Part shown: positions 1 through 23,865 of the stretch, piece by piece
How the letters are laid out: each line of letters starts with the position of its first letter
Numbering within the stretch: the first letter of the stretch is position 1
The notes under the pieces: model-generated
Database searches by the model: none
What the model was told of the DNA's origin: nothing
What the model saw: only the letters and a program-made list of their open reading frames with translations
Made by a program: the position numbers and the translations under genes
DNA from: Paraspadella gotoi
Taxonomy: Eukaryota > Animalia > Chaetognatha
Assembly (NCBI GenBank): GCA_051294375.1
Contig: CM119265.1
Location: 11,285,818-11,349,817, forward strand
Direction: 5' to 3'
Length of the DNA: 64,000 nucleotides

Positions 1-505
1 TAATATCCAGCTCAATCACACACTTACCTATCCACACACAAAATTTCATTTAAATCCATCCATCCAATCACGAGTAATTGGTGTTTTTTTGTAAGGTGGG
101 ACGGACGGACGGACGGACACGACGGACGGCACGGACATCATTTTTTTTGCATAATTTATCATAATTCGATGTTCTGACATGATATAAGTGTGTGCCGACA
201 ATATTGAGGGGGCGACCGACGGACCGAAAAAGTGAGTTATAAAAAGTGAGTTATAGAGTCGGGATCTGCTGATAAGCAGATCGAGACCGTTTCGCCACGT
301 TATTTTTCATTGTGTCATAAAGCAAAAATGTTGAAAAAAAGGGGTAGAATTTTGATGGGTTCCTTAGATTTCTCCACAATGTGAGGTCCGATTAAAGCGA
401 AACTTGAGATTTACAATATTCCCGTCATTCCACATCTATCGATATAAAAATATAAGAAAAAAGCCACTGGCTTCTTTTTCTATAGCGGCTTCTTATTTTA
501 TCTAG

Positions 506-1199
506 AAATCTTCGCCAGCGCGGACACGGCTTACGTATTGGCCTATTCCATCATCATGCTAACGACCGATCTCCACAGTTCCAACGTCAAAAACAAGATG
601 ACCAAGGATCAGTACATCAAGATGAATCGTGGCATCAACGATTCCAAGGATTTGCCCGAGGCTTACCTCAGCGCCATCTACGACCAGATCAAGGGAGAGG
701 AGATAAAGCTCAAACAAAAGAACAAGGTGCGTCAATCCCGAAATCCCATGAAGATCTCGAATATTTTAATTCTCCTCTTTTCCTCAGGGCAAAGAGACGG
801 CGGTGATCACGACAGAGAAACAGCGTCGAATCCTCTATCACTCGGAGATGGAGCATATGGCGGCGACGTCCAAGGCGCTAATGGAGAGTTGCTCACATGT
901 CGTCGCAAATTTCACATCGGCGATGCATCACGAGCACGTTCGGCCCATGTTTAAGGTCAGTTTTAATGTCTCCGACCGACGTTTTAGATGCCCTGATTTT
1001 TCCGCTAAAATTCAAAACAAACTTGTCAATGTGATTATTCTCTCAGCTGTGTTGGACTCCTTTTCTCGCGGCCTTCAGCGTCGGGTTACAGGACTGCGAC
1101 GATCCGGAAATCGCAAATCTTTGCCTGGACGGCATTCGTTGCGCCATAAGAATCGCCTGCATCTTTCACATGGAACTTGAGAGAGACGCTTTCGTTCAG
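506..1199 (+). CDS. ARFGEF1: BIG1/BIG2-type Arf-GEF, internal exon block 2 (exons 506-726, 788-955, 1047-1199): end of the Sec7 domain and start of HDS1
   Basis: Spliced translation (E)[51 protein letters not shown]...[16 protein letters not shown]...[26 protein letters not shown]...[20 protein letters not shown] matches the BIG1/2 family. GT-AG introns with consistent phases. The following exons were not found in the window. Confidence 0.95.
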
Positions 1200-4100
1200 G
1201 TTTACTAATGGGGATGGATAGGAGCCGACGTCGTTCTTAGAGATCGAGAAAGATTTTTTCAATGGAGATTTTTGTACAAATCTGACTACCAAACAATATA
1301 AACGCTCCTGGGAAAAATTCCGGTAAAAAATTGATGTAAAAACAGCGGAATTATAAGTTTGTAAGAGGAAGTCAGAATCGGCGAAAATCTTAAAAGGCGA
1401 GAATGTTGAAAAAAGGGAGAGGAATTTAGGTTGTTTTTGGTCTATTTCTTCTAAATCCACAGGCCAATTTAGACGTAACTTAAGATTTACATTATTCCAG
1501 TCATTCTCTAATCTCTATCCAAAAATATAAAAATATTATGAAAAAAGGTTTGGGATCGACTATAGGAATTTGGTTCTAGTTATTAAATATGTTTTGTTTA
1601 CGTTTTATCAAAACAAACAAATTTTCTCTCTTTTTTTTATATTATTTTTATATTTTTTTCTCTCTCTCTTTTCTCTTTTAATTACATATCTCTCTCCCTC
1701 TCTCTTTTCTCTTTTTCGAGTCTGCAGCTGGCTCTGCAGGGGCTTATTCTTTTTCTCTCTTTTCTCCTGCTGCTTCTGCTGCTGCCTTTTGAATTCTTTC
1801 TTTTTTTCTGGGTGCCTCTGCTGCTGCCACTGCTGATTCGTCCGAAAACGATGTGGCTTCTCTCTCTCTCTCTATCTCTCTCTCTCTGCGTTTTAATTAA
1901 AAAAAAAATTTATGGTTCCAAATGAAAATCTTATATAAGACACAATGAAAAATGGCGTAACGTTACTGTTCCGTGCATAAAAAAAATTCACTGTTCAATA
2001 TTATTATATTTCTTTTTATTTTTTGAAACATTATAGTTTCATATGTTGATATCCAAAATATCAATGCAAACTCTTTTTTTGTTTTTTAGATATGACTGAA
2101 TATAGGGTGAAAGATGATAAATTTTTTTAAAAAGTTACTTATTCATATTTATTCGTAGAATTATAATAAAAAAAAATAAAAAAAATAATAATACTAATAG
2201 TTAGTGTTATGTCTCAAATAGATGGAAAAAAAACCTCATTTAAAAATTCGATCGGGAAGTGGGGTAACTAAGGCTTACCAATGGCATCCTCCACGCCGAT
2301 TGTTCTCTCAAATAATTTTTTTATTTAATACATTTGAAAGGGAAAAAAGAAAATTTGGAATGCAGGTTGCAGAAAGGGTACAGATAATCTGGACTTTTTG
2401 ACATGATAACCATGACCTTTTATATCTTGTAAAATGGGGGCAGTAAAGAAATCTAAAAAATTTCATCATTAAGTCAGTCAATGAACCCTTTCCAATGGGC
2501 TATTACGAGAAATATTTTTTCTTAATTAAAATGGATGATAAATAATAAAATTAAATTCCTTGCTATATTTAAAAAAAAATTATCAATACAATTTAACACA
2601 ATGATGTTTTGCTTTGTCAAATATGTTACCAGCTATATAATTTTTTACAACTTTATTATGATAAACAAGCAGTTTGTCAAGCTTTTAGTTTGCAGCTAAA
2701 GATAATAAAAAATGACGATTTTTTTCACAGACAAGAAGGTAGATGTCCAGACTGTTTATATCAAGCTGAAAACATTTTGTATTTATCATTTTTAATATTT
2801 AAAAATACATTTTATCAAGCTACAATATAAATTTTTGCTTGTTTTTTACTTTAACTGAAAAATATAAGCAATTTTATGGAATAAAGAAAATTTAATAATA
2901 AACAAAATGTAATTCAGTCTTTCCTTTTTCAAATTACAAAAGAAAAAGAAAAAATTTCATATGCCTTCATTGAAATTATTAAAGCAAAAAACTGTTATAC
3001 TTTTAACTCTGATTTAAACAAAAGCTGTGTAAAGATTTATGGATTTAATTTAATAAAACTCTTTTAGAAAGGTGTCCCATGATTAGGGCTTTAATTTGAT
3101 ACCACATCCACCTTGCTACCTCTTTTCTTTCAAAAGTTATTTAAAAAAATAACTTTTTTTAAATTACGCAGTACAAATCTTTGTTAAATAAAAATTTCGG
3201 CAAAGCGGGAGTATCTCACTTATTTCTATTGGTACAATACTTAAATTTCAAAATAAAACTTGAAGAAATTTTTTTTGTCATTTAGAGACATATCACTTTC
3301 AGATGTACCCATCGTATAATAATTTATTTATTTATTTCCCCAAAAAAGCCTAATTAGAAAAGTTGAAATTTTTTCAAATTGTGGAAAAAAAATTTTGTCC
3401 GACCTATGCTCATTGAGAATAATGGTTTTGCATAGGAAATCAAAATATCAAAAAAATAAAAAAATCAGCCTCTAGAAAAATCGAAAGGCTAGAGGCTGAT
3501 TTTTTTAGAATTGCAAAAATTTTTTCCTGACTCATAATCCATTATTCTCAAGTTTCAAATTATTTTTTCCAAAATCATTCAATCAATTTTTTTTATTAAT
3601 TTAAAATGTTTTTATGATGTTGTTTTGTTTGAAAGAATTGAAAAAAAGTGAAAAATATAGTAATTATATAAGGTTTTTGAAAATACCTTTAAAATATTAA
3701 ATAATTAGACACAAGGGGAGTAAGCAGAGAAAACTTCCCATTCATAAAGAAAATTGAAAATGAATTTGTCATATTGTTATTTAGATTAATTAACTATTTA
3801 CAAACATATGATTCATATAAATTGAGGAAATGATGGGTAAAAAATATTCATCTTGGTCTCGGTTAACTATTAAGTTATCATTAAAGTTTTGTTTTAATAA
3901 TATTAATATTTTTTTTGCATTTATAAAAGCAATGATCTAAAATTTTGTAAGCGTTTCGAGCTATATTGCTTTATCTTTTTTACTATTTTTGATCTAGTTA
4001 GCTTTTTTGTTGATGGTCAAGGGTTATGGTCAGATACAGTAATGTCCAGTAGTGTATATCGCACATATTACCAAAAGTAATGATTAATTAATTTGGCTCA

Positions 4101-5292
4101 GAAACAATTTTAAAGGATAAAATCAGCACATTCAACATTTTTCTAATAGAGATTTCCGTTAAAATCTGAATACCCAAATTGCAAACGAGATTTACAGAAA
4201 TTCGGGTAAAAAACAGTTGTAAAAACACACGATTCCGATAGCATTATATCTTAAGAGCTACCCAAATTCGTCTTATGGCATTTGATAAAGGATTTAATAT
4301 CCAACAAGCCAGGGGAAATGCACTAGTCATCTCCGGAGAATTTTCAAACCTTGTTTTTACTATAGAAATGAACGGGAAATTTTGCTTTTTGAAAATTGTA
4401 AACGGGGCTAGGGTATGTTAACATTATAAATATTACTTTGAATTATAAGATTTAGAAAGCCTCTTGTCTCAAGAGCTTGCCAAATTTTTCTTTTCATTAT
4501 TGACCGAACTCATAGTAAACCAACGTGGTAAAGTCCATTGGTCTGGTTTGACAACATGAAATTTTTATTTAATAAGAAATTAAAAGGAAGGTTGAGAGAA
4601 AAAACTGATTAGTACCAAAATGAAGCCATAATCATAAGGCACATACAAGATACAATTTTAGAATTACTTTTGCTGAAACCTCCTTACAGGGTGAGTGTCA
4701 AACTAAGTCAAAATTATAATGAATTTTAAAACTATTGACACCCCATAAGAATAAATGAAAATTAAATTCTTTTTAATGATTCTGAGAGAAAAAAGGCTAA
4801 ATTGTACTCTAGTAAAACTTAAAAAGTTTTTTGGATAAAGAAAATAATTGCTTGTCTGATTTTACAAGCATGCTTACAAAATTTTACAAAATATTATTCA
4901 CCCCATCACAGTCTAAGTATTTATCTTTCTTTTCCACCAGCAAAAAGTAAACATTATCTTATTTTAGAGAACAGTGACGTTTACTGAAAGAAGCCAGAAG
5001 ATGTTCAACTTCTTCACTTTAATGTTAGTTTTCAATAATAAAATGGGCAAATTTTTTAATTACTCAACTTTCACAAGCTTCACAAGACTTTCACAATATC
5101 CCAATGTTAATGTAATGTATTATATTTTTTTACCTAGAAATTATAAAAGATTAGAAAGTTGTGGATTCCTTTCGCTCGTTAAAGGGAAAAAAATTAACGA
5201 GCGGAATTATAAGTTTGTAAGAGGCAGTCAGAATCGGCGCTCGTTCTATTTTTCTTTTTATTATTGACCAATTTTTTCATATTAAACCAACC

Positions 5293-6734
5293 TGGTATGG
5301 TGGACTAAAATCCACCAACCGTTCATCAGCGGCCATTGGTGCCGGAGGCAAGTCGGTTGCCTCCCAACCCAAAGGTCCGGGGTTCTAGCCCGGTGGCCGC
5401 CTAGCAGTTAAGAGGGACAGGGCGCTTAACCCGCCTGTAACACGGTGTTACAGCCTGATCCGAAGCTCAGGGACTGCTTATATTGACCGGTTCTGTCACT
5501 AACACCACAATAATTACTGTCTCTTTATTGGTGAGCCCGACTTCCGAACACAACAGCAACCAACAACACTCAGGCGACAAGCCTCAACCTGGCGATGCAC
5601 TTTCCGCCAACAACACATCAGGCGACATGCCTCAACTTGGTGACGCACTTTCCACCACTAACAATTCACTGAAGAGACGCAACAGACTTCTCCCTACGGG
5701 AGGGGGGGGATGTATGGTGGACTAAAATCCACCAACCGTTCATCAGCGGCCATTGGTGCCGGAGGCAAGTCAGTTGCCTCCCAACCCAAAGGTCCGGGGT
5801 TCTAGCCCGGTGGCACTATCATCAAAATAATTTTTTTTCTCGGAAAAAGTGTAGTCCATCATACAAAAATATATATGCTTTTAATTAATTAGGGACTGTC
5901 ATCGGAAACCTCTCAAGCAATATCAGTTGTCAAAAATCATTTCTTTAGGAGATATAAAGGCTTTTCTCTATTTCAGACTCACTTTGTCGAGCTATATTCC
6001 AGGAACTTTATGATGAATTTACTTTTTTTTTTAAATATTGATAATCAACTGGATACCAAGCATGGATTAAATACAATTTGTTCTAAAAAGGTTTTACTGT
6101 ATCTGAGTTTTTGAAAACTAGCTTAAAATATAAAGGGAATCATGGGGAATCACTACCATTCTAATTAAATATAATGATTGATATTATAACGCACTTGATG
6201 TGTTCGGGATTTCATCCGCAACGATCCGCAAAATGAGTAATGCCAAAATGATTTTCAAATTAATTTTTTTTCTAACACCCCGATAAGAACCATTTACTAA
6301 GTAAATTATTTTTTTAACTGCGATTTTAAAGTGGTTTAACTTATTGAATCATTTTTTTCTCTTTAAAATTTCATTTTACCGTATTTGAGAGGTAAAATAA
6401 TTAAATAAAGCCAAAAAACTCTGCTTAGCGTTTAATTCATCTTTAGGAAACGTAAAAAATAAAATGAAACATTTTTGTCCTTTTTGGAAATATAAAAATT
6501 TATGGGAATAACCTCTAAAGTTTTCAAGAATTACTCGTGTTAAGCTATCCGAATATGTCATTAGTATAATTTTTCCGATTTTAACGTTCACTTCGATCAT
6601 AGTGGGTAGCTGTTAAGAGGGACGGGGCGCTTAACCCGCCTGTAACACGGTGTTACAGCCTGATCCGAAGCTCAGGGACTGCTTATATTGAACGGTTCTG
6701 TCACTAACAAATAACAATAATTACTGTCTCTTCA
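5293..6734 (+). mobile_element. TRIM (miniature non-autonomous LTR element) with a tRNA-like sequence in its LTRs. 5' LTR 5293-5527, PBS at 5529, PPT ~5698-5710, 3' LTR 5711-5813 plus 6605-6734
   Basis: Direct repeats TG...CA. PBS tggtgagcccgac resembles the tRNA-Trp PBS. Polypurine tract gggagggggggga sits immediately before the 3' LTR. Confidence 0.8.
5814..6604. mobile_element. Non-autonomous DNA transposon with CACTA-type termini, inserted in the 3' LTR
   Basis: Imperfect TIR cactatcatcaaa / ttcgatcatagtg, flanked by GG or ggtgg/ggtag. CMC or Transib-like. Confidence 0.6.
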
Positions 6735-6829
6735 ATGGTAAAGTGAATTGGTCCAGTTTTCATCGCGAAATTTTTATTTAAAAAGAAATTAAAAGGAAGG
6801 TTGAGTAGACGAGAATCTTGCTTAAAAAA

Positions 6830-6938
6830 AATAGTTGTGGAAGATATCTCAAAACAAAATGTTCAATTTTACAATGAAAAAAACCCAATGGTTATTTTAA
6901 AACAAGAGGATGAGATCAAACAAGAGGTTGATTTTTGA
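6830..6938 (+). CDS. ZnF-C piece E: terminal codons IVVEDISKQNVQFYNEKNPMVILKQEDEIKQEVDF* followed by 3' UTR
   Basis: The same sequence directly follows piece D in copy 2 (39445-39526). The ending resembles ZnF-A EIKEEVDYGY*. Confidence 0.75.
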
Positions 6939-8845
6939 ATTAAAAAATGAAAAAATATAACAATGATTGAACTTGTTATTTCCTGTTTTATTGATATCAT
7001 TGCCATCTTTTTTTAAATGCAATATTTATTTCAATATGAAAATTTTGTTTATGACGCTTTCATTCGTTTTTCTGAATGAAAGACTTATTTTAATGATATA
7101 GTTTTGTGCCTTTATTATCATTATATTCTTTTCTGACCAACCAAAACATTTTTAGACCCGAAATGATATGTTTTATGGATTCGTCTGATAAAGAGCAGAT
7201 TGGTGCCCATTTCATTTTTTTAAAAATACAGTACGGGGTGGATCAAGAGCGTTAAAGTGCCACGATGGTCAAATATCAGTTTTTAAGGTTTTTATTCATT
7301 TTATAAAGAAAAAAATTATTTTAATATACTTTTTAATATTTTTACCCAAGAAAATATAAAAATAAACATGAACATTTATATTTTTATTAGTACTAATCTT
7401 ATCAAACTAAAACTAATACTAAAAAAGATCATTTCCGTTTTTCAGCCTCAAAATACTTTACTTTCCTGGTTTTGCAAACTCTAAAAACCGGAGCAGAAAG
7501 ATTATGCACAATTATTGCTTAATTTTCAAAAAATCTTTTTGCAATAGCTTTGGAATTCTCTTGGTCGCGGGTTATGCGACCATGATAATCCAAAGTTAAT
7601 TTTCCTGCTTTTTTGGCAGCATATTTATGCTCAAAAATCTGTTGAAAAAGCAGAACTTATCGCAATCGTCCTAGGGTCTTTACGGGAATTGAGAGAAAGG
7701 TTGGCTAAACTTAATATAACTTTTAATATTCAATATATATACTTTATAAACAAGTTTGAGCAAACAATGTCGGATCTGCCCACGATCATTATCGGTAATT
7801 TAATAATTAATTAATAATTAATTACAGTTAATTAATTAATTAGTCAATTAACTTGATCCGAAATGTTTTTGATTGATTAATTGACTGATAAATTAATAAT
7901 TGATTAATTAATTGATTAATTTATTAATTAACTGATTAATTATTGGATTAATTTATACATCTTGCATTTACATTTATTATGAAAAAAAAAGAAGCATAAT
8001 CAATTAGTGAAACAGGTTTTTTTTTTCCATTTAAACTCATTTCCACTCAAACGATTCCATCCAAACTTCATATCCAGCTCAATCACACACTTCCCTAACC
8101 ACATACAAAATTTCATTCCAATCCATCCATTTTTTGTTAAGGTGGGACGGACGGACGGACATCATTTTTTTTTAATAATTTATCATAATTCGATGTTCTG
8201 ACATGAAATAAGTTAATGCCCGACAAGATTGAGGGGGCGGACCGACGGACCGACAAAGTGAATTATAGAGTGAATTAAAAATTGCAAGGTTACTTGTTTT
8301 ACACTCCTGTGAAAAAAAGAGGTCACTCTTGAATTGCGCACGTTATATGCATAATTGCATATATTAGTTATGAAAGATAAATGTAGGTTTTTAAAAAGGG
8401 AATCCAAACATATAAATTTTTAAAAAATTGGTCCAGCTGTTCAATAGCACCTAAAAGACGAGTGGTTAAAAACAATAAGGGGAAAAAAACTATTTTTGTA
8501 GATCTGCAATAAAACCAACGCTTCTTTTCAACCTTTACTTACTGGCATTGTATTAACGTTTTAGAAAAAATTAAAATAGTAAATCTAGATCTATATTAAT
8601 TAAAAAAATTAGTTTTATTATTCAAATTCCAAGGTACCTTAGATATGCATGGTTGAAAATATATCAATTATCTTCTGTTTAAACGCTCCATTTAAGTAGT
8701 TAGTATATTCTGATAGTGATACATGCCAGGTAAAGTTTTTTTTTTTAAATAGAAAATATATAAGTATGTTTCCTTTCTTTTCGTTGTTTGAGAGAATTAG
8801 AGACAGTTTGAGTTTAATTTTGACAACGATTTTATTTTATTGTAA

Positions 8846-8887
8846 AACAGACATGTTTCTGCTTTATTTCAAGCCTTCATCAGCGTT
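8846..8887 (-). ncRNA. Minimal type I hammerhead ribozyme (PLE pseudo-LTR)
   Basis: Minus strand reads aacg-CTGATGA-ag-gctt-gaaata-aagc-a-GAAA-catGTC^tgtt, with a palindromic ACATGT stem III. Confidence 0.7.
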
Positions 8888-9875
8888 AATGTGAATTTGG
8901 AAAATATGCCAAGGGGGGCCAATTTTGAGCTCTATCTTAATTCTTCAATTTCACTTTATTACTTATTAACTCATCTCTCAAATCTATCCTTTCAAATTTC
9001 TGTTTCACTCTCACTCATTATTAAGTAGATTAATTAGAGATGCGCATCGTTCGAATCGAAGCTCCGATCAAGATTCCTTTATATTTCACTTCTATTCAAA
9101 ACTGTATAGTCATGGCCCAAACAAATTATGTCAATATGGGCAGATTTCGAAAGCTTGGCGTCTTGGGAAGCCAATGGAGGTAGAGCGCGATCGAAATTCC
9201 CATTTTATCATGCCCAAAAATGGTATTTAAATGGATTGGTCAGGCCGTTTTTTCCCTATTCCAAGAAAACCTCCTGGCTCTTAAATAAAAAAGACAAAAT
9301 CATACATATCAGTACAGTTTCCGAAACCTTATTGTCTTCTCTACAAAATGAAAAAAAGAAAAATTATAATTCTTGCAATCTTAATTGCTTGATAAAGCAA
9401 TCAAATGAACTGGTTTTTTAGGTGAAAACTGCATAGTCAAGCCTTGATTTTTTTCAATTTTGAACACAATTGACAGAAACTGTATTGATTTTACTATTCA
9501 AATCAGGTAGAGCGCGGGCTTAATTCAAAAGCGTTTTATCAATATAATGCAAATTTAAAAAAGTCCAATAAAAACTCATTAAAACAAAAATCGTCGCACA
9601 GTGTTGCTTGTGAGTCCCAAATGCTAGAAAAATATTTTTTTTAATTTTTATATTATTATATAATATATAAGAATATTTATATAAATATAATTATAGTATT
9701 AAGAATAAACTTATTCAATCCGAGAAAGGTAAAAAATATATATATAAAAAATAATATTTTACAATAAAATTAGCTAATTTTTCCAAACTGTGACAATTTC
9801 TTTTTTTATTATGGTATAATTAAATTAGAGAATTGACAAAGTTTTTGTTTGCAACAAATTTTATTTATAGTTTAA

Positions 9876-9914
9876 GACATGTTTCGACTTGTTTTACAAG
9901 TCTTCATCAGCGTT
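9876..9914 (-). ncRNA. Minimal hammerhead ribozyme core
   Basis: CTGATGA-a-gacttgt-aaa-acaagtc-GAAA-catGTC. Stem II is perfect; stem I is disrupted. Confidence 0.7.
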
Positions 9915-10299
9915 TTGACAGAATGGTTTAAAATTTGTGCATAAGAAGAGAGAGAAAGAATAGGGTAAAAGTTTTCCAACAAAGTGGTGAGACAGAATAG
10001 TGGTCAGATGAGAGGACAGGTCAAGGTGAGGACAGATTGAATAAGTTGTGAAAAGAAGTGAAACTTAGAGAGAGAGAGAGAGAGAGAGAGAGAACAGGGA
10101 TAAATAAATAATAAATGATACATTGTGCAATGTACAATAAAGATAAATGTTTTGAAACTAAAATTAGTAAAATTTAACAATTGTCTAGTGGATAAATAGT
10201 TCAGGGATAGAAAGTGAAAAATGAAATGAAATTTGTAAAAAATAAAATATGAGAATTTTAAGTGTTAAGTAAATGATTAAAATGAAATTTAAGGAGTAA

Positions 10300-10945
10300 G
10301 AAAGAGCTCAAAATGAGCTGGCCCCCCTTGGTTTATGCAAATGAAGGGCATGGACGATGGTAACGGGTCATTGGCGCGTCAGTGGCTGAGAGGAGAGTGT
10401 TACTGAACCGGTAAATTCTGTACCGGGGATTGTACCAGGCGGAAAAATTCCCAATGCCACTCTTATGTCTCTCTGACCTGATACGCCTGCCGGCTGCCCT
10501 CTTCTCGCCTGCTGGCGAGGCGGGCGATTGTCTATTTTTGCCGCTTTTGCGACAGGGATGATACTCCTCTCCTTCCTCCTGAAGCCGTCGTTTTGGGCGG
10601 CGCTCAGTCCACAGAGAGAGGGACTGAGTTGTTGCATTTGAAGGAGTGGCATAGTTTGCCCATTGCCTGCGTATGGGTCTCCGCCTGTCTCGTTGAGTGG
10701 AGACGGGGGGAATCATTGTGCGGTCGTGGTGGTGGCGGGGCCTCCACCACGCTTTTGATAAGCGAATCATAGCTTGGAGGGAGGTCGAATCGTCCTCCAT
10801 CACGGTTCAAAGAGGGCTCGAGGGCTTTGATGTAGACTGCCTCTCTAATACCTCTTAAGAACCAGTTTGGGTCATGGGACAGCACGAGACAGTCTGAATC
10901 TCTGAACAAATGGCCTGTTTCTGCTGAATGCTCAGCTATTGCGGT
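10300..10945 (-). mobile_element. Penelope-like retroelement 3' remnant (C-terminal part of the GIY-YIG endonuclease)
   Basis: TAIAEHSAETGH...VLSHDPNWFLRGIREAVYIKALEPSLNRDGG is typical of the PLE endonuclease end. Flanked by hammerhead-bearing repeats; an inverted copy of its 3' flank lies near 8910. Confidence 0.8.
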
Positions 10946-11377
10946 ATAATTAAAAAATATAAGATTAAAATAAAATTTTAATTTTAATAAAATATAATAA
11001 TCATTATAAATATAATAAATCAAAAAAATTTTGAAATTTTTTTTATTTTGATAATAATAATAAAATAATAATAATAAATAATATATAAATTTTTATTTTT
11101 TAATTTTATTTTTTTAATTATAATTATTAATTTTATTATTATTATTATTTTATGATTATTATATAATCTGATAATAATATATATTTCATTATAAAATAAT
11201 TTTATTTTATTTATTTAAAATTATACAAAATTACTTTTTAATTATTTTAATATTCAAATAAATTTTTTAAAAATTATTCTTATAATTAATAGCCATTGTA
11301 TTAATCCTTTCAGCTTCGTTGAGTTTAGAGATTTAAGCAAAGTTTAAAAATAATTTAATCAACGATTTTATTTGTGT

Positions 11378-11420
11378 ACGGACATGTTACGACTCTTTAT
11401 TTCGAGTCTTTATCAGCGTT
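11378..11420 (-). ncRNA. Degenerate hammerhead copy
   Basis: acg-CTGATAA-agactc...gagtc-GTAA-catGTC^cgt, with two core substitutions. Confidence 0.5.
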
Positions 11421-13836
11421 AATGAAACATCTACAAATTTGTGCAAAAGAATGGAGAGAGAGAAAAAAAAAAGAAAGAGGGGGTAAAAAAGTTTTCAACA
11501 CAAAGATAGTGGTTAAAAAATGAGTACAGTTTAAGTTGAGGACAGATCAGTTGTGAAAAGAAGTGAAATGGTCAATTGGTGAAAGAGAGAGAGATATAAT
11601 AATATATAATAAAAAAATATTTTTAACTGAACGGGATTTTTCTGAAAAATTCAGGCCCAGGATCTCACTGTGCGCATGTTCTAAAGCTTAGTACTACGCA
11701 TAGTACTAATCTTTGTTGGATCAAAAAGAGCTCGATTTTAAGCGAAAGTTGATCGGTTTGAAGAGCGATTTTTGCGATTGCTTTTTGGCGATTACTTTTG
11801 AACATATTGTCGGAATATGATGAAATTATGCATGTAGATAATGTTTGCAATTGTCTATCGAACGCTACCAAATTTGATATAAAACAATGAGTTGTTTAGA
11901 AACAATGCTCATCCCCAGATTAATTGTTAAATTTCACTAATATTCATCAGTTTAAAACTTTATTATTATTATGGCAGTGATTTCTATCGAGGAATTCAGC
12001 AAAAGAAACCACTTTTTTCAATATTGCTGGAATATTATCAACAAAATTGATTAAATTTGAACAAAGGCAAAGTGGGCTGGTCTACGGATTAATTGAAATC
12101 TGCTGCTGAATTTTCTAATCAAGAATCAATATCATTTTTGCTACTTTTAATAAAAAAAATTGTCCATTTTGACTTTTGTCTTGAGATTTGAACGCTAAGA
12201 TGGTTGGATAAAAACTTTTTACTCTTGCTTGTGGGTCCTTCTTATCTTCTTTACCTCTGAGTCGGTTCATTTGACGTTGGTCATCTATTGTTTGTCTATG
12301 AATTAATTTTTAAATTGAGTGGTCAAAAATTCACATTTTTTGTTTTTATTACAATTTGTTAAACAAAAATAGTTGAATTTACTGATAATTCTAAGCAAAT
12401 ATACCTTATCAACTGAGCTTCTGACACTTAAAAAAAAAAATTTTTAAGCCAACTTTTGTTTTGTGAGTTGCATTTTATTTGAACTAAAACACTGTTTTTA
12501 ACTCATTTTATACTTTTAACAGATGAGAAACAAATTAATGGTAACAAATTTTAAAAAACCGCATTCTTTTAATCAGGAATGCTGGAGGCGCTGAATTTTG
12601 CCCGCCTCCACTCCCCGCCTCCCCTCCCCGCCTCCCCAGACCCCCCTCGCCTCCGGTTTTGCGTTCGCCTCTCATTTTTTTAGCCCGGATCACCTCCGCG
12701 TTCGCCTCTTTAACGCCTCCGACTTTTTGTATAGTTTTGTATTTGATATTATTTTTTTAAAATTCAGATCAATGGGTCATGAAAAAACTTTCAATTTATG
12801 TTTAAAATTGATAAATCAATAAATAAATAAATAAATAAATTTGTTATTTTTAAATGTATATTAGTGTGATGTGAAAATGATAAAATTTTAGAAAATTAAA
12901 ATTTAGCATATAAAACATAAAAATAAAAACCAAGAAAAGTACTTTGGTAAATATATTTTTTAATTTTATACATTAGTGGCCACCAGTGAGCTATATTTAT
13001 ATATAGTAATAAGTATATTATAAGCTAAAATTTCAAAATGCAAATTTGTTAATAATTTTTTATAATTTTAACCTACTTTTTAAAAAATATTTATATTTTC
13101 TTTTATCAACTTTTAACGAGGAATCTGAATCTGTTCTCAGAATTTAAAAAAAACATTTTGAAATTTTGACATTATATAAGGGTAGTACTATATACAAAAT
13201 AAGCTGACTGGGCTACTATATTTATAAAAAAAAAACAAAAAAAACTACAGATTAGTATTCACTAATATGATAGTTTTCAAGATATATTTGTTAAATCTTG
13301 ATTCCAAACTTTCACTTCACCCTACTGAGTAAAGGGCAGTGGCCAGATGAGAGGACAGGTGAAGGTAAGGACAGAAGAAAAGTGAAAGAGAGAGAGAGAG
13401 AAAAATGATTACATTTGACAATGTACAACAAAGATAAAAATTTGGACAAACTTAGAAATTAGCTGAGATTTTGAATTATTAACAAAAGTTAAATAAGTTA
13501 GTAAGTAGTAATGAAAATTAAAATAGAGGAATAAGTGGTGAGGGATAGATAAGGTAAGAGTTTAGTGAAATATATAAGAGAAAAAATATATAAATATATT
13601 ATAATAAAAATAGAATGATAAGTAGCTTGGTTTAGAATAATTAAAAGGATTTGAGCTTTCAGACTTTGGTAACTAATCCTGTAATTAAGTTTTAACGTCT
13701 TTATTTTTAAAATCAAGTTGTTTTGAGTTTTAAGAATGTTTTTTTATAAAATTCAATAAAGTTTATGGTGTTATTTTCATAGTATACATTATAAATTTTA
13801 AAATTGCAGGTCGTTTTCTTTTTTACAGATTCCATT

Positions 13837-16800
13837 ATGAAATATGATATAAATATTACAAAAATGTCATCAAAAAACCTCAAAATATCTGAAAACAAAA
13901 TAGAATCCTTAATCAAAAAGCGAAAATATGAATGTGAAATTTGCTTCAAAAAGTTTTTCTTTAAATGTGAGTATAACAAGCATAGAAATATTGTTCATTC
14001 GGACAACCGTCCCTTTAAATGTGATGTTTGTAGTAAAGCCTTTAAATTAGTTGGCGACCTTAATAGACATATGCGAACTCATGAAACCCCGCGATGTTAT
14101 CAGTGCGTCTTGTGCGAGAGAAGTTTCTCATGCATACCCAATTTAACCCGTCATGAAAGATATGTTCATGATAATTTGCCGAAAAAGCGATACCCCTGTG
14201 AAATTTGTGGAAAGGTTTTTCATCGCAAAGACGCAGTTCGAAAACACCATAACAAATATCACAATTTTAATGAAGCAGAACATGAGAAAAATAACAAGAA
14301 AATCAAAAAAGTTATTAATGGTCCACTGACCTGCGAAGTTTGTGGAAAATCATTTTTAAGCAATACTCGACTTTCTAGTCACAGAAAAAAAAATCATTCT
14401 GACAATGATAAACAAACAAAACGAAATAAAACTCTTAAAAAGACTCCATTAATTATGGAAATATCAACTCTAAAAATTTCAGACCAGGCCATTAAATTTG
14501 AAACGGAATCCCCATACGCTTATGATTATCAGTATGAAAATGACCTACCTTCTTTCGAACCAACTGACCGAGTGGAACAAAAACCTGAAATCGTTAAGAT
14601 ATCACACTTTAAGCCATCGGACAGAAAAAGGTAATTAGACTATTCTTATGTGATTTTGCATAGAGTCGCTATTTGTATGCGTGCGCGTCCTGGTTTGGGT
14701 CCTACTATTCTTTGTCAGTAAAGTTACTGATTACGTTTTAAAACTAGAGAAACCCCTAATTTTAGTAATTCAAAATGTGTTTACTCCCGAATATTTAAAA
14801 TTATTTTCTTTTTCGTGTTTAGTCGATCAACTGGCGGTCAACAACGCATTTGCGAATTGTGCGGAAAGGGATTCGAATTGGTGGAACATCTTCGTAAGCA
14901 TATTTATAATCATAGTGTTGATGTAAATAACAAGCCATATAGGTGCCTTAAGTGCGAAGTCGCCTACGGCCACATAAACTATCTTCGTGCCCACGAAGTT
15001 CGATGGCATGGAGGGAGCCGGGAATTTTCGCTTCGGCCCAAAAAAACGAAAAAGACAAAAGAAGAAACCCTCGAGAGGATCAGATTATGGAAGCAAAAAA
15101 GAAAAGTACAGGGATTGTTGAATAAGCCGCAGAAACAGTCACGAACACGAAATGTACGAAAGAAGTCTGTGAAAACCATAGAAGATCCTTTGCTTGTTCC
15201 CCATGAAAATTCCGATTGTGGCTTTGTAGCGAATAATGCATTTCCAAATAATAGTTCGTCGAGCAACGCTGCGATCCAAACGTCGTTGAACGATGATGCA
15301 CGTGCATTCGTGGACGGTCCGACGACTTATCAAACTAATTGTGATATTTCTAATGGTATTGATAAGCCTTTAAGTTCATTTCTTCATTCGAGTAGTCACT
15401 ATCAATTTGAGAAAATTTGGTTTAATGGACTTAAAGAATTGTGCAAGCACCCTTACCATAATCCATTAGAAAAAGAACAAGGCCGACCGGTTGTGAACGA
15501 GACGGAAAGTGGTCTTAATGGCGACGCCGATCAATATTTAGCACCCAAAGCGAATTCGGAAACTGACGCTACAGACGAAGATAAAAACGGGCGGATTATT
15601 GTAACTCAAGAAAATATCATAGGGGATAAGCCTGATCCAACCGATCAACTTCCAGCGACCAAATATGAAACGGTAACAAAAAATTTGTGCCATCAATGCG
15701 GTCAAGGGTTTTCACGAGCTAGTGCTCTTCAGACCCACATGAGAGAACATACTGGTGAGAGACCATTCCAGTGTCACGAATGCGGAGTGGCGTTCATTAA
15801 CTTCGCTAAACTATGCACTCACAATCGGTACTGGCATCTGCCTCGCAAACCGCCAAAAAAAAAAGCAAACCTTGATCCGACTGCTTCCCACGAATTTGCG
15901 GTGAACGTCGCGTCGACCGATCCGATTCCTTCCAATAATTCTGCGGAATACTTAAATCAAGTTAATCTCGCCGATATATCCGTCGGTGAGAACTCCTCCA
16001 ATCTAGTCGGTCTCAAGAAGATTCATCATTTAAGCGCTCTCCTTAAGCGCCACGTCTGTGCGACCTGCGGCAAGGGATTTAAACTAAAGGGCGATCTCAA
16101 CCGGCACGCCGGCATTCACCTTAACTACCGCCCGTTCAAGTGCGGTCAGTGTCAGGCGGCTTTTAGTAGTTCTTGCAATCTTCTCCGACACAAACGAACC
16201 GTTCACGACGAGATTCCCCTCTACAAGTGCGATGCTTGCGGTAAACCTTTCTCGCGAACAAAACTCCTCAAGAAGCACCAGTTGATTCACTCGGGCGAAG
16301 TTGTCATCAAACCTGCCAAGCCCCGGAGGATCCGGAAGGCCCCCAAGCCCAACCCGCGAGACTGCGAGATCTGCGGAAGAACTTACTCCCGTTCCAACCT
16401 CCTCAAGAATCACATGAGGACCCACACGGGGGAAAAACCCTTTCGCTGCGACGAGTGCGACATCGACTTCTACGATTGCAATCAACTCAGACGCCATCAA
16501 CGTCGATGGCACGAGTGGAAGATCGAGAGGCTCAAGAACACGAAACCGCGGGAGATTTCCCGCCGAGAAAAAATGGGGAAAGTGAAGAGGAAAATTGGAC
16601 GACCAAGAAAACATTCGACCGAGAATCTAGAGTTGTACGAAGACGATAAACTCGTTTTGCGGCGGAAAAAAAGGGACGATGACTTAGCAGTAGACGCGGT
16701 TGATACAGACTGTGGGTCTAATAGTGTGGAAATAAACTATGGGACGGACGATGAAGGAAAAAACTATGGGACGGACGATGAAGGAAAAAACTATGGGGCG

Positions 16801-17016
16801 GACGATGAAGGAAAAAACTATGGGACGGACGGAAGAGGAAAAAACTATGACTTCAACGGCGACGAATTAAACTTTGGGACAGACGAAGAGGAATCATATC
16901 TTTTATCCTCAGACATAAAAACGAGTGGGTTCGTCGGCGAGGTCGAGGATGCGATGCGGTCCTTTGAATCGGAAATGATCGTGGAGATTAAGGAAGAAGT
17001 GGATTATGGATATTAG
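13837..17016 (+). CDS. C2H2 zinc-finger protein 'ZnF-A', intact two-exon gene (13837-14630, 14823-17016)
   Basis: Many CxxC...HxxxH fingers with HTGERPF/HTGEKPF linkers. A phase-2 intron (AG|gtaatt...tttag|T) joins the two ORFs. C-terminal KRKIGRPRK AT-hook-like motif. The start could instead be 13864. Confidence 0.9.
16735..16890 (+). repeat. In-frame 27-bp tandem repeat encoding (NYGTDDEGK)n, about 6 units, in the ZnF-A tail
   Basis: aactatgggacggacgatgaaggaaaa is repeated and degenerates toward 3'. Confidence 0.9.
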
Positions 17017-17266
17017 TAATTTCTAATATTAATATCAATCATGTTATTATTAGTCAGGATCTTGCTTTTTTTATTATTCAAGTTTAATGAGTTTTTCGTA
17101 TTTGGCGTGTTGACCAACTTGTCTTCCATGAACGTTTTACCATTTTTGAAGCAGTTGTGGTAATTTATTGAATATTATATTTTAATGTGCTGATTTTTTT
17201 AAAAAGGGAAACAAAAATTTCAAACTGCGTCATAATCTTTCGTTTGCTCTGAGAAGAACAAACGTC

Positions 17267-18563
17267 ATGTCTCGACTCTATCCCACTCTGGAAGACATGA
17301 ATGTAGATCAGATGGCGCGAGCTCAGTCGCCGCACGCGCCGTCCGTATCAGCGTCGTCGCCCGGCGCCCCGATAGCCATCGGGTGGAACATCGCCTCTAG
17401 CGACATCCGGGAGGATCACCACCTTCACTCCTCGCTCTATCCCACGCTGGGAAATTACATGGGGATGGATCTGACTGCATATCAGGTGGGTGAAGGTCAG
17501 TATTTCAAAGCGAAGGGGCCTCTAAAGACGCTCTTTCTGAAATGGCCTCGCAACTTTATAACAGGCACAACCTCCAGCGGCGGGCGACCCGTGGGGCGAA
17601 ATGCGTGAGGCGGGTCTCGTCACCTCGGCCGTGGGAACGGTGGGCATGAAAAAGGCAAAAGTAAAGCAGGGGTTGCGCGAGGTGACCCTCTGCAAGGACG
17701 AGAAGGGAATGATCGGCCTCAGGGTCGAGGACATCAACAACGGGATCTTCGTCTGCTTCGTCCAAGCTAAGTCGCCCGCCGCTATGGCCGGAATCAGGTG
17801 GGCGCTTAGTTTCGTTGATGATCGTTAATGACACAACTCAATTGTCTTTACTTATGACTTTTTAACATGGGCGAAAAATGTTATTAATTCCCAGTAAATA
17901 AGCTTAAACCTAATTTTCTACCAACAGGTTCGGCGACCAGATTTTGCAAATCGACGGGACCAACTTGGCCGGTTGGAGCCTTTCCAAGGTCCATGACCAC
18001 CTGCGCAAAAAGACGGACCCGAAAAACATCCGATTGGTCATTCGCGATCGGCCGTTCGATCGAACCATCACGATGCAGAAGGATTCGGCTGGAAAAATCG
18101 GCTTCATCATTAAGGTCACTTCACTTTTCCTTATTTCAATTTCACAACAGTCCACTACTCACCAACTTCGTTTCTATATTCATGGCTTTCGCATTTTTTC
18201 TTCGTATCCTCTTCTCTCCAGGACGGAGAGGTCAGCGACATCGTGAAGGACTCTTCTGCGGCGCGCAACGGAATGCTGACGGAGCACGCGGTGCTGGAAA
18301 TAGACGGTCGCAACTGCGTCGGTTTAAAGGACAAGGAAATGGCCAAGCTCATTGTCGATGCGCCCACCACGGTCACCATCACCATTATGCCAGGTGTGAG
18401 GAGAGATTTCTTCTTATTTTTGAAAGTGTGAGTTGTATGCACATCTATTCACTTTGTCATATTTCTATCTTCCTTTTTAGGGTTTATCTACAAACACATG
18501 ATGAAGCATATGAAAGGTCATCTTGTGCGCAACAAGATGGATCACTCCGATCCCGACGTTTAA
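17267..18563 (+). CDS. SDCBP: Syntenin (two-PDZ adaptor), exons 17267-17485, 17565-17797, 17928-18114, 18222-18393, 18481-18563
   Basis: N-terminal LYPTL motifs (LYPxL, ALIX-binding). PDZ1 REVTLCKDEKGMIGLRV...GIRFGDQILQIDG, PDZ2 RPFDRTITMQKDSAGKIGF...SSAARNGM, C-terminus MDHSDPDV*. Confidence 0.96.
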
Positions 18564-20005
18564 GTTTTCACCAACTTATTAGTTTTTATTATTGGTTTAC
18601 CGGTTATTGATTCTTCTGTCATGGCAAATAAATGACGACCTGTCGGACTCGATGTTTTTCCGACTATCGATTCGACCTCAAGAACGGGTTATTTTCGAAT
18701 GTTTCCTTCAAGTGTGGAACCTTGGAGCTCCTTTTGTCCCCATTCCCGAGCAGAGATATCTACCACAAGGTATTAATTAGTCTTTTGCAACTTTTGCGTT
18801 TTCTGAAATCTGCATTACGGTATATAGACTCATGTTTGTCCTTAAATTAATCCCTTTTCGCCAGTTTTTTTTTAATTCGTTGTTTGTTTGTTTTATCTAA
18901 TAATGAATATTGAATAATATTTATGTATTATAAAAGTATTTCTCGCTCGTAGTTTCTTCGGTACAGATGACATAAGATTGGGTGCATAGTAAGGCATAGT
19001 AAGGCGGGCCAAAATTGAACACTTTTTATATCTTCTAATTCTCTAAAAAAATATTTTTTCCTTTATATTACTAAATCGATTTTCAATGCAACTTTTTGAA
19101 TTAGTTCATTGTGTTGTTGTGATGAGCGTTTATGTGACGAGAGTTTATGTCCAACAGTTGCACTGAAGCTTTTAAATATTTATTAATATATAACAAATGA
19201 CAAATTTTTTAAAAAAAATATTATTTTTTAAGAATGGATTCTTATAGAGCTTGAAAATGAAAGTTAGTAATACAATTTTTATCGTCGCAAACGCAAACGC
19301 AAAACAATAAATTGGTTAAAAATAGGAAAAAACCATAAAAGATCATCATCATCATTATCATTGGCTGAATTTTATAGTTTCATTAATAAAACCAAAAAAA
19401 TTTAAAAACCTTTTTCTAACTTTTAAAGCTCTATCAGAATTTATCAATAAAATAAATTTCAAAATTATTTTCATTTTAATATTCTTTAACAGTCACTTAA
19501 CCATTATTTATTTGAGAGAACTTCTAGTTTTCAACCTGTTCCGGCCTAATGCTAGTAGGCACTGCATACACAGTCCGAGTCGTCTCTGCGTTGCACCTCG
19601 AAGAAGCGGATTGATATTTTCGTTGTAGTCAGTTAAATTATCTCGAGATCCGATTATCCTTAGGATACATCGGATCGTTACCTTGTTTTTAATCAGACCC
19701 TTTAGCTTTTATGCCTGTAAATAAAGCTACATTGACCGGGTTTGGTTTTTTTTTCTTGCATTCCTTCGAAACGAATTCCGTTATATATTCTAATTTGTTT
19801 CTATTTTTACTCCGCCTGTGCTTTCGTTATTTTTTTTTCCTGTGGTGCATTTCATCACTTCAAGTTCTGCCCCTGTGTAGAGATATAAACGTGATACTTT
19901 AGCCATGAACTAGTAAAGAATTATAAATTTATAATCGGTGCCATGGATGTTTTAGACGGTCGATAAAAGAATAATATCAAACGTTTAAAACTAAAAAAAC
20001 GCACG

Positions 20006-23000
20006 ATGCCCGGCGCCACCAACGCGGCGTCGAAGGCGTCGGATTCTTCTGGCGCTAAATCGGAGCGGCGCCCTCGAAAATCCACGTCCTCGGATCTGAG
20101 CATAACTCCCAATCACCCTGCTAAGATTGACATGTAATTAAATGAATTTAGCTTCACTTTTATATGCTAAGCCGCACCGAAATCACGAGTTATTGTTTTT
20201 TATCGTAGGTTTTTGACTCGTGCCTTAGAAAAGATCCTAATGGATCGGGAGATGAAACGCGCCTACCATCAGCAGCTAAAGCGCGCCTGCGAGGTCGCCC
20301 TCGAAGATCTGCGGCGGGAGGCCACCGAAGGGAAAAAGGCCAAAGACGACGACCCCGCCTCCGCCGCCCTGCCGCAGCCCAAAGGTAAGGGGGAAGGAAG
20401 ATGGGGTGAACTTTTTGGTGGTTGACTAAAAATATGAAAAAATGTTTATGAATTTTTATTTAATAACATTCCTCCACTTGTCAGACGACGCCAACCGTGT
20501 AGAGGCGGACAAGTATTTCCTCCCCTTCGAGCTTGCCTGTCAGTCCAAGTGCCCGCGCATTGTGAACACCGCGCTGGACTGCATCCAAAAGCTCATCGCC
20601 TACGGCCACCTGAGCGGCGATGCCCAAGACTCGACCGGGCCGCCGGGCAAAAGGCTCATCGATCGGATCGTCGAGACGGTGTGTGGCTGCTTTCACGGAT
20701 CTCAGACCGACGAAGGTACTTAGTCTTAAAACCTTTGCACGCCAACCGTTTTCTTCCTTTAACTGTTTTTATCGAATTATAGGCGTCCAGCTGCAGATAA
20801 TCAAAGCCCTTCTGACTGTGATTACGTCGAGCTCTTGTCAAGTGCATGAGGGAATGGTGTTGCAAACGGTGCGCACGTGTTACAACATTTACCTGGCTTC
20901 GAAAAATCTTATCAATCAAACAACGGCCAAAGCCACCCTCACCCAGATGCTTAACGTCATTTTCACCAGGTAAGGTCTCAAGCATTAATTCAACGATCAA
21001 AATCGGTGTTGATAAGTTGTTAATATTCTTTCCTCGCAGGATGGAAAATCAGGCCGTCGAGGCAGCGCAACTGGCGGCGCAACAGGCGCAGGAAGAAGAG
21101 CAAACGCGCCAACGAACTGAGAGCGTGACAAGCGGAATGGACAAGGACGCTCAGTCGCAACAATCTCCGTCGGAACTGTCCGCGGGGAATTCTTCAGCGC
21201 CGGGCGAGGAATCTTGCGACGACGCCGCCGCAGCCGTCGTGGAAGGATTACTTCGCCGCGTCGTCGCCTCACTGGACCGAGGCGGCGCTGGCGTTAATGG
21301 CACGAATCTTAGCGGCGTTCGACCGCCCTCCCTCTCTATAACCACCGCTGACGGCGTCGTCGCCGATGACGGAAGGGAATGGACGCCGTCTACTCCGAGC
21401 GCCGACGTCTTAAGGACAGAGTCGAGCGGCAGCAGGACGCCGACGGGGAGCATCGCCACGCACGATACCGGTAATTAAATAATAAATATGTGGGGTTCCA
21501 TTTTATTTCTATTAACGTGTGTTTCTTGTGGAGATTAGTATTTATTTTCGTGACCGTCAGCAGGCGTGACCTCGTCTACGGTGACCACCAATAGTTTGGC
21601 GGGCGGCGACGATTCGGCGGCCGAAGGCAGCGACTCTCAACTCGACGCCGCCACCGCCTCTAACCTCGCCTTCGCCCACGTCCTCCAGAAGGATGCCTTT
21701 CTCGTCTTCAGGTCCCTTTGCAAACTCTCTATGAAGCCCCTCAACGAAGTGTCTCCCGCCGACCCCAAATCGCACGAACTCAGATCCAAGATACTTTCCC
21801 TCCAACTTTTGCTAACCATCCTTCAAAACGCCGGACCCGTATTCAAAGTGAGTCTTTTTCCCTGTGATTCAATTCTTTTTTTAAAAATGCAATATTTTTT
21901 TTCTCTTAACTCTAGACGAACGACATGTTTATTAGCGCGATAAAGCAGTACCTCTGCGTCGCGCTCTCCAAAAACGGCGTCTCCACGGTTCCCGAGGTTT
22001 TCGAGTTGTCTCTCGCCCTTTTCCTCACCTTGCTGCAGAACTTCTGGAAACATCTCAAGATGCAGATCGAGGTATGATGTCGTTTCTTATAATTACGTAT
22101 TCATATTTATTCTTATTTCTTTTTCCTCTTCGCAGGTGTTTTTCAAGGAGATCTTTTTGAACATATTGGAGACGTCAACTTCGTCGTTCGACCACAAGTG
22201 GATGGTCATTCAAGCTCTCACTCGCATCTGTTCTGACGCTCAGGTGCGAGTTAAACTTATTTTGATAACTCTCCTTACAAGTACACCGATTATCGTTTCA
22301 TGATGAATATAATCACCATTTTCATTTCCAGTGCGTCGTTGATGTTTACGTAAACTACGACTGTGATCTAGCCGCCGCAAACATTTTCGAACGCTTGATT
22401 CATGACTTATCCAAAATCGCCCAGGTAAGGGTCATAAAGTTTTGTAAGAGTACTAATCGAAATCAGATTAAACAGACGTCTTGCCTCGTTTTTTCGCTAA
22501 AGGGTCGCCACGACATGGAACTCGGCACGACACCGAACCAAGAAAAGAGCATGCGTGTCAAAGGTTTGGAATGTCTCGTCGACATTCTCAAGTGCATGGT
22601 GGAGTGGACCAAGGATCTTTACATCAACTCCAACCAGCAGTCTAACTTAGGGCAGGAGAATCGATCCAAGACAGGTGAACTGACATGACATTAAAAACAG
22701 CTGCTTGCATGGAAAAAGAAAGTTTCGTTTTCACGTGTTGGCATTTTTCTCGCTCAGAAACAGAAGTGGACAACGATTCCGGGAAAGGAACGATGACTTC
22801 TTACGGATCCCTCAGTTCCTTGAGTTCGACTCACTCCGCCAACAGCGCCTCCGGAGGCGGGCCTCCAGGCGGAGCGAGCGGAACTCCAGCGCCGCCACCG
22901 GATTATCCGGAGAGCATCATCAACATCAAGCACATGAAGGAGGTCATGGAGCAAGGGATCAACATGTGAGTTGGCTCATTTAAAAGTACCGAAGAGAGGA

Positions 23001-23439
23001 GAATGTGAGGTAAAACTTATTAAACTCAAACTCATTTTCTAGGTTCAACAAAAAGCCCTCGAAGGGTCTCCAGTTTCTGCAGGACCAAGGGATCGTTGGT
23101 TCGACGCCGGAAGATATCGCCGAGTTCTTTCACCAAGAGGATCGTCGGCTCGACCCAACAACCGTCGGCGACTTTCTTGGCGAAAACGAGAAGTTGAACA
23201 AAGAAGTAAGAACTTCTTCTGAGAATGGTAGTCGCGTTGAGTGATGGAGATCACAACTTTTCGAGCAATGTTGCAGACGATGTACGCCTACGTTGACCAA
23301 ATCGATTTCGCCAACATGGATTTCGTCTCCGCGTTGCGTCGCTTCCTCGAGGGATTTAGAATTCCGGGCGAAGCGCAGAAGATCGATCGGATGATGGAGA
23401 AATTCGCCTCCAGATATTGCGAATGCAATCCAAATTTGG
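20006..23439 (+). CDS. ARFGEF1: BIG1/BIG2-type Arf-GEF, N-terminal block 1: DCB, HUS and first part of Sec7. Exons 20006-20133, 20209-20384, 20485-20715, 20783-20969, 21040-21470, 21561-21847, 21916-22071, 22136-22243, 22332-22424, 22503-22674, 22758-22965, 23043-23205, 23277-23439
   Basis: Motifs [59 protein letters not shown] and [21 protein letters not shown] (catalytic Sec7 Glu finger). All junctions are phase-consistent. Confidence 0.96.
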
Positions 23440-23865
23440 GTCAGTATTATTGAGATGATTCATTTCCACGTTATCTTAATCTTAACTTCCCTTTATCTAG
23501 GCGAAAATCTTGCTTAAAAAAAATTCAACATTTTTCTAATAGAGATTTCCGTTTGATTCTGACTGCCCAACTTTACAAACGAGCCTGCAAGAAATTCCGG
23601 TAGAAAACAGTTGTAAAAACACACAATTCCGACAGCTTTGCATCTAAAGAGCTCGTTCCTTTCTACTTGTGGCATTTGATAAAGATTTTACTATCAAACA
23701 AGCCAGGGGAAATGAACTACTCGTATCCGGAGGATTTTCATACCTCATTTTTACTATAGAAATGAAAGGGAAATTTAACTTTTTTAAAATTATTAACGGA
23801 ATTACGGTATGTTAGCATTATAAATGACTCTTCAAATTATGAGATTCCAAAAGCCTTGTGTCCCT

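What the first reader, a model, noticed from the sequence alone, without database searches (positions are those of the whole stretch)
497..23500. BIG1 Sec7 domain split at a 9-bp direct repeat (tttatctag), second half 23 kb upstream
Block 1 ends ...CNPNL G|gtcag followed by a normal 61-nt intron ending tttatctag (23492-23500), then repeat DNA instead of an exon. The expected exon starts at 506, preceded by the identical tttatctag (497-505). The phase is exact: G+AA gives E in [14 protein letters not shown]. Recombination between the two 9-mers would excise a ~23-kb circle carrying the joined exons, so the repeat looks like a pointer or target-site duplication. Both blocks are free of stops and frameshifts, which argues against long decay.
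Basis: partly seen in the sequence, partly recalled or inferred. Interest (0 to 1): 0.9.

Follow-up and report, generated by a model that had tools for sequence, protein, structure and literature searches.

The report
Transposon-split BIG1 intron, blocks likely misassembled
The two halves of an animal BIG1 gene do appear in the wrong order in this assembly and share a 9-letter repeat, but the repeat is likely the footprint of a common transposon sitting in an intron and the reversed order is likely an assembly error, not a ciliate-style scrambled gene.

Summary
BIG1 residues ~11-790 (20006-23439) lie 23 kb downstream of residues ~792-976 (506-1199), same strand, in phase, with tttatctag at both cut ends. 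The 9-mer is beyond chance (P ~3e-5). The pointer/circle reading is not supported. Each 9-mer abuts one end of the same high-copy ~1.4-kb repeat (left end after 23500, right end before 497), which is target-site-duplication geometry. DNA contigs from two studies run through 23500 into the repeat unbranched. The proposed circle would lack ~850 C-terminal residues. A spliced RNA contig covers the 5' half and runs on for 768 nt outside the laid stretch, so a longer mRNA exists. The block order is doubtful: 370 bp past the 5' half, read contigs do not follow the window's repeat-to-zinc-finger join; a nearby duplicate carries single-base deletions that read contigs lack; and TMF1 and a zinc-finger duplicate are cut the same way. 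Best reading: real intronic transposon, misordered assembly (0.62). A real rearrangement rescued by trans-splicing remains open (0.17). Read support for the middle block and the long-range order is untested.

The parts
20006..23439 (+). BIG1/ARFGEF 5' half, 13 exons, ends inside Sec7 (phase 1)
   Evidence: tblastn aa 11-790 of P0004; 12 introns removed in RNA contig, depth 145.7; 0 stops
23440..23500 (+). 61-nt intron ending in the left 9-mer (23492-23500)
   Evidence: covered by DNA contigs X1 and X5 with 0 differences
23501..23869 (+). Left end (~370 bp) of a high-copy ~1.4-kb non-coding repeat
   Evidence: 78-80% to 4130-4475 and 62756-63060; summed depth 18,687-52,702 against 105 for BIG1 in X1
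23869..23870 (.). Repeat-to-zinc-finger join that the read contigs do not follow; candidate misjoin
   Evidence: X1 record 3 and X9 record 26 align from 23870 and keep 483 and 144 unaligned letters, inferred to lie on the upstream side
319..496 (+). Right end of the same repeat family
   Evidence: 319-415 is 90.8% to 63903-64000; 319-463 is 70% to 1394-1547
497..505 (+). Right 9-mer, serving as splice acceptor of the next Sec7 exon
506..1199 (+). BIG1 middle block, 3 exons (506-726, 788-955, 1047-1199)
   Evidence: aa 792-976 of P0004; 96% to relatives P0001/P0002 in exon 1; 0 stops
1250..1560 (+). Second, internally deleted copy of the repeat inside the next BIG1 intron; no BIG1 exon follows
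   Evidence: 1250-1344 to the left end 75%, 1346-1437 to 63856-63946 90%; no later BIG1 hit
62750..64000 (+). Longest copy of the repeat, linking left-end and right-end sequence in one element
   Evidence: element map
38070..39444 (+). Zinc-finger duplicate carrying 15 single-base deletions, at least 8 contradicted by read contigs: local assembly noise
52638..53001 (+). Orphan last two exons of TMF1 (same kind of cut)
   Evidence: only aa 1274-1372 of 1372 hit; Pfam TMF_TATA_bd just under cutoff, 27.1 vs 29.1 bits

Best explanation
A high-copy repeat sits at the 3' end of a BIG1 intron with the same nine bases on both sides, likely a target-site duplication left by its insertion, and the reversed order of the gene halves is likely an assembly misjoin in the repeat-rich introns. 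The true locus would read 5' half, 9-mer, repeat (perhaps with nested insertions), 9-mer, middle exons, second repeat copy, 3' exons. It would be cis-spliced from the donor at 23440 to the second acceptor, skipping the first. Shown: both halves, the 9-mers, the repeat ends, the DNA join at 23500, a spliced transcript that runs on beyond the 5' half. Inferred: that the two repeat ends are one insertion, that the transcript continues into the middle exons, and that the order is an assembly error.
For: (1) Left repeat end follows 23500 and right end precedes 497; both ends lie in one element at 62750-64000. (2) The join at 23500 is in DNA contigs of 2 studies, unbranched. (3) RNA contig of 3633 nt: 2865 nt are the spliced 5' half, 768 nt lie outside 19500-25500, room for the 542-nt middle block plus 226 nt. 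(4) Read contigs with this zinc-finger copy's letters do not continue into the repeat at 23869 (X1 record 3, X9 record 26). (5) The duplicate at 38070-39444 matches 24 of 26 listed read variants but has 15 single-base deletions, at least 8 inside gap-free read contigs with its alleles. (6) TMF1 and a zinc-finger duplicate are also cut, with pieces out of order. (7) A 93-96% identical relative has an ordinary short intron at this site (P0002); 61 of 63 loci holding both exons are strictly colinear, the other 2 contiguous with a 3-base alignment overlap (80 loci examined).
Against: The window has no N gap, so the misjoin would lie inside a contig. No read was seen that gives the true order, and reads on the middle block were not obtained. 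The runs are not shown to be the assembled individual. Logan contigs drop minor branches, and the side of the unaligned letters at 23870 is inferred from contig ends; 3272 pieces and 202 loose ends were not shown. About 840 bp of the element's middle is missing between the two ends. The left end is 78% and the right end 91% identical to the same reference copy, so they may be different insertions. Both zinc-finger paralogs exist in the reads, so real duplication has occurred here. How the assembly was made is unknown.
Confidence: 0.62

Rival explanations
1. The order is real: repeat-mediated rearrangement reversed the order of gene blocks while keeping their strand, and BIG1 mRNA is made by trans-splicing of separate pre-mRNAs (or this individual carries a broken allele).
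For: No N gap. Both halves intact. A longer spliced transcript exists. All blocks are on +, in the reverse of the order one would expect (BIG1 middle; ZF-syntenin-BIG1 5'; TMF1 3'-ZF). A zinc-finger duplicate looks circularly permuted (39535-42531 against 26647-28437). Precedent: transposon-caused eri-6/7 split (10.1101/2024.01.15.575659, passages).
Against: No long complementary repeats pair the two pre-mRNA ends (no inverted match between repeat ends). At least two trans-splicing steps would be needed for BIG1, plus more for TMF1. The window's join at 23869/23870 is not followed by read contigs, and the permuted duplicate lies next to or in the noisy stretch. The RNA is from another study and may have a colinear gene.
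Confidence: 0.17
2. The block at 506-1199 is a recent duplicate (or belongs to an upstream copy), and the working middle exons lie colinearly downstream of the window after a very long intron.
For: The block is bounded by repeat copies on both sides, as captured or duplicated fragments are. Real segmental duplicates exist in the window. The window ends inside a repeat copy close to its right end.
Against: The 5' half has single-locus depth in X1 (105, against 105-124 for paralog-specific zinc-finger contigs) and no variants, which argues against a second 5' half. No second middle block in the 40 kb downstream. The end copy is only 91% identical to 319-415. Copy number of the middle block was not measured.
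Confidence: 0.15
3. Programmed DNA rearrangement: the 9-mers are pointers and recombination builds the joined gene (or a 23-kb circle) in somatic cells.
For: Exact 9-bp direct repeat at the two ends to be joined, correct phase.
Against: DNA contigs pass 23500 into the repeat without a branch in 2 studies. The circle lacks ~850 residues. The repeat lies in an intron and is explained by the flanking element. Contigs drop rare forms, so a minor somatic form is not excluded.
Confidence: 0.03

Closest known systems
Intronic non-autonomous DNA transposon with target-site duplication (9 bp is typical of Mutator/MULE; recalled)
   Same: High copy, non-coding, direct repeat of host bases at both outer ends.
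   Different: No terminal inverted repeats found. Other copies also start with TAG, so the duplication may be 6 bp plus the element's own TAG. Superfamily unassigned.
C. elegans eri-6/7 (10.1101/2024.01.15.575659; passages read)
   Same: A gene broken by transposon insertion and rearrangement, with repeat remnants at the breaks.
   Different: eri-6/7 is an inversion with ~930-bp direct repeats that pair the pre-mRNAs; here the strand is kept, the order reversed and only 9 bp are shared. Trans-splicing not shown here.
Circular-intermediate segmental duplications, A-B to B-A (PMC7450558; abstract and outline read)
   Same: Second half before first half, microhomology at breakpoints.
   Different: Those are extra copies beside an intact donor; here the 5' half looks single-copy and expressed.
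Long-read misassembly from chimeric or noisy reads (10.64898/2026.06.11.730069; passages read)
   Same: Discontinuous regions joined without gaps, false structural variants.
   Different: Amplification chimeras are mostly inverted (up to 91% in the studies it cites); the joins here are direct. The library type of this assembly is unknown.
Oxytricha scrambled genes with pointers (PMC9797194; search listing only; details recalled)
   Same: Out-of-order gene pieces with a short direct repeat.
   Different: No joined DNA form seen; the host is an animal using the standard code; the repeat is an intron end flanking a transposon.

Membership tests
BIG1/ARFGEF (Sec7 GEF) | Sec7 domain plus N-terminal regions colinear with known BIG proteins | tested here: met
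BIG1/ARFGEF (Sec7 GEF) | C-terminal region (aa ~977-1820) present | tested here: not met
   absent from this window; rest of genome not held
Transposon insertion with TSD | Identical short host repeat outside both element ends | tested here: met
   9-mers abut left and right ends; that both ends are one insertion is inferred
Transposon insertion with TSD | Interspersed high copy number | tested here: met
   summed depth 18,687-52,702 against 105 in X1; 5 or more pieces in the window
Transposon insertion with TSD | Empty-site orthologue | tested here: inconclusive
   P0002 reads through a short intron at this site; its DNA was not seen
Mutator/MULE | Long terminal inverted repeats | tested here: not met
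   no inverted match between the ends; the 62750 copy lacks both tips
Ciliate-type scrambled gene | Joined DNA form retaining one pointer in somatic DNA | tested here: not met
   unbranched contigs through 23500 in X1 and X5; rare forms would be missed
Trans-spliced split gene (eri-6/7 type) | mRNA joins the halves | tested here: inconclusive
   RNA contig runs on 768 nt beyond the 5' half; those letters were not seen
Trans-spliced split gene (eri-6/7 type) | Non-colinear genomic order confirmed by independent long DNA reads | not testable with these tools
   only short-range contigs served
Trans-spliced split gene (eri-6/7 type) | Complementary sequences that pair the two pre-mRNAs | tested here: not met
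   none between 23495-23880 and 300-505
Assembly misjoin | Assembly junction absent from reads | tested here: inconclusive
   23869/23870 not followed by X1 and X9 contigs; tables truncated, source individual unknown

The most novel reading that the evidence does not exclude
In this animal, transposon-driven rearrangement has laid several housekeeping genes (BIG1, TMF1) out as same-strand blocks in reverse order, and full-length mRNAs are rebuilt by obligate trans-splicing at transposon-marked introns without long pairing repeats.
Probability: 0.15. Interest if true: 0.85.

Novelty: not a real feature. Interest (0 to 1): 0.25.

Why it matters
If the best reading holds, this is an ordinary intronic transposon plus a warning that this assembly misorders gene blocks inside gap-free sequence, so synteny or gene-loss claims from it need read checks. 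If the order is real, it would be a same-strand, reverse-ordered housekeeping gene in an animal that must be rebuilt at the RNA level, going beyond the eri-6/7 inversion, and cheap to test with long reads and RT-PCR.

Tried and rejected
No whole genome is held, so the remaining BIG1 and TMF1 exons could not be located. The metagenome scan found no locus of this species (best 86% identity, 80 loci kept of 140) and the repeat had no hit in those loci. No full-length protein of this species among the best 120 of 3121 hits. No holder is on record as RNA; X9 proved spliced when laid. Rfam: 0 matches in the window. Earlier findings: none. Low zinc-finger depth in X5 and X8 was first read as polymorphism, then set aside because AT-rich dropout explains it as well. 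Helitron, Helentron and Crypton labels (features recalled) were considered for the repeat and none was supported. A diverged right end before the TMF1 exon was suspected by eye but blastn found no match. A similar duplication around the repeat copy after 1199 is only approximate and is not counted. The acceptor statistic included 3 mis-placed and 2 other non-BIG1 acceptors and was redone on 14 BIG1 acceptors. Paper searches listed no report of a reverse-ordered animal BIG1; one search listed human intragenic ARFGEF1 trans-splicing (PMC10450196, listing only), a different thing. The library lacks most subscription papers.

Full report
Observation. The window is animal DNA with compact introns and no N. 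The 5' half of a BIG1/ARFGEF gene runs 20006-23439 and stops inside Sec7; the next three exons lie at 506-1199 on the same strand. Pfam Sec7 positions 66-117 and 118-183 fall on either side of the cut, and a full-length mussel BIG1 maps aa 11-790 and 792-976 to the two blocks, with nothing significant beyond aa 976. Both blocks are free of stops and the phases fit. The 9-mer occurs only at 497 and 23492. From 14 BIG1 acceptors its chance probability is about 3e-5, and no two of them share more than 6 terminal bases over 91 pairs.

What the 9-mer is. Directly after 23500 begins the left end of a repeat that recurs at 4130-5237, 62750-64000 and 1250-1344. Directly before 497 lies the right end of the same family (319-415 is 90.8% identical to 63903-64000), and the copy at 62750-64000 carries both parts in one element of roughly 1.4 kb. 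In run X1 the repeat has summed depth 18,687-52,702 against 105 for BIG1. Host 9-mer, left end, right end, host 9-mer is the geometry of a target-site duplication. The element has no detectable terminal inverted repeats, and other copies also begin with TAG (loose ends; window 6806), so the duplication may be 6 bp plus the element's own first bases; the family is unassigned. The two ends differ in identity to the reference copy (78% and 91%), so a single insertion is inferred, not shown. A second, internally deleted copy sits in the intron after 1199, where BIG1 is cut again.

Reads. Eleven runs were listed, 9 holding the 5' region, from 3 studies; 4 were laid on 19500-25500. DNA contigs in X1 (19641-23527) and X5 (20975-23542) match with 0 differences and pass 23500 into the repeat without a break; no listed X8 piece bridges 23500. 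So the insertion junction is real, and a joined DNA form is not common in those samples. X9 is spliced RNA: one contig of 3633 nt at depth 145.7 skips all 12 introns of the 5' half. Those exons sum to 2865 nt, leaving 768 nt outside the laid stretch, enough for the 542-nt middle block plus 226 nt. The letters were not seen, so the join is inferred, and X9 is a different sample. Read support for the middle block was not obtained, which leaves its copy number and flanks open.

Is the order real? Three things cast doubt. First, 370 bp past the 9-mer the window jumps from the repeat into a zinc-finger gene at 23869/23870. X1 record 3 (859 nt) and X9 record 26 (718 nt) align from 23870 with this copy's letters and keep 483 and 144 unaligned letters. 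Their other ends fall at known variant sites, so the unaligned part is inferred to be upstream, not in the repeat; the tables were truncated, so a bridging contig may be hidden. Second, the zinc-finger duplicate at 38070-39444 matches 24 of 26 read variants listed (38 further rows were not shown) but carries 15 single-base deletions (11 of its 18 indels are in homopolymers). At least 8 of the deletions lie within gap-free read contigs bearing its alleles, the pattern of a poorly corrected long-read consensus. Third, other genes are cut alike: only the last ~100 of 1372 residues of TMF1 are present, and a zinc-finger duplicate has its second half (39535-40180) before its first (41712-42531) with a 4-base overlap. 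Breaks fall in repeat DNA. Against this: there is no gap, the runs may not be the assembled individual, both zinc-finger paralogs exist in the reads, and amplification chimeras are mostly inverted while these joins are direct (10.64898/2026.06.11.730069, passages).

Relatives. P0002, 93-96% identical over the two exons, reads straight through a short intron at this site. Of 80 metagenome loci, 63 hold both exons; 61 are strictly colinear and 2 contiguous with a 3-base overlap. None is from this species.

Mechanism and rivals. Most likely (0.62) the gene is colinear, with repeat-expanded introns, cis-spliced to the second copy of the acceptor, and the blocks were misjoined in assembly. A real rearrangement with trans-splicing (0.17) has a precedent in eri-6/7 (10.1101/2024.01.15.575659, passages), but that case uses ~930-bp repeats and an inversion, and no pairing sequence exists here. 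A duplicate middle block with a working copy beyond the window (0.15) is untested for the middle block, though the 5' half looks single-copy. Pointer-guided excision (0.03) fails on the unbranched DNA contigs and because the circle would lack ~850 residues.

Verdict. The sequence features are as described; the 9-mer is best read as a transposon footprint, and the scrambled order is probably not biological. Searches listed no paper on a reverse-ordered animal BIG1; no supplements were read. Interest 0.25; the trans-splicing case keeps probability 0.15 and would deserve 0.85.

Noticed in passing
window 13795-17016 and 55860-58812: Two intact paralogous C2H2 zinc-finger loci (37-44% protein identity), each two long ORFs in a row; decayed or partial relatives at 23824-28572, 38070-42531, 47453-47869.
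   Followed up: partly
window 17268-18563: Syntenin-like two-PDZ gene (name from reading the translation, not searched), 250 bp after a zinc-finger stop; every host gene seen in the window is on the + strand and closely spaced, which may hint at operon-like organisation.
   Followed up: no
window 39535-42531 against 26647-28437: Apparent circular permutation of a zinc-finger segment (89-93% identity), opened at a 4-base overlap, with other repeat DNA inserted at 40180-41456; may be real (circular intermediate) or an artefact.
   Followed up: partly
window 53332-55595: Unidentified gene after TMF1 with no Pfam hit in two ORFs; a CCHC-like motif near 54800.
   Followed up: no
window 10604-10950 (-) and 42526-42798 (+): Fragments resembling a Penelope GIY-YIG endonuclease end (recalled; no Pfam hit) and a Tc1-like transposase start (weak HTH_29).
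   Followed up: no
window 28512-29074 and 35655-36219: Same 18-bp minisatellite: 23 perfect units of ~31 in the first array, 5 of ~31 in the second, which lies near the noisy stretch.
   Followed up: partly
window 1-282, 25590-26390, 34701-34979, 43882-44330, 62006-62423: Abundant short repeat family with an internal GGAC microsatellite and palindromic end.
   Followed up: no
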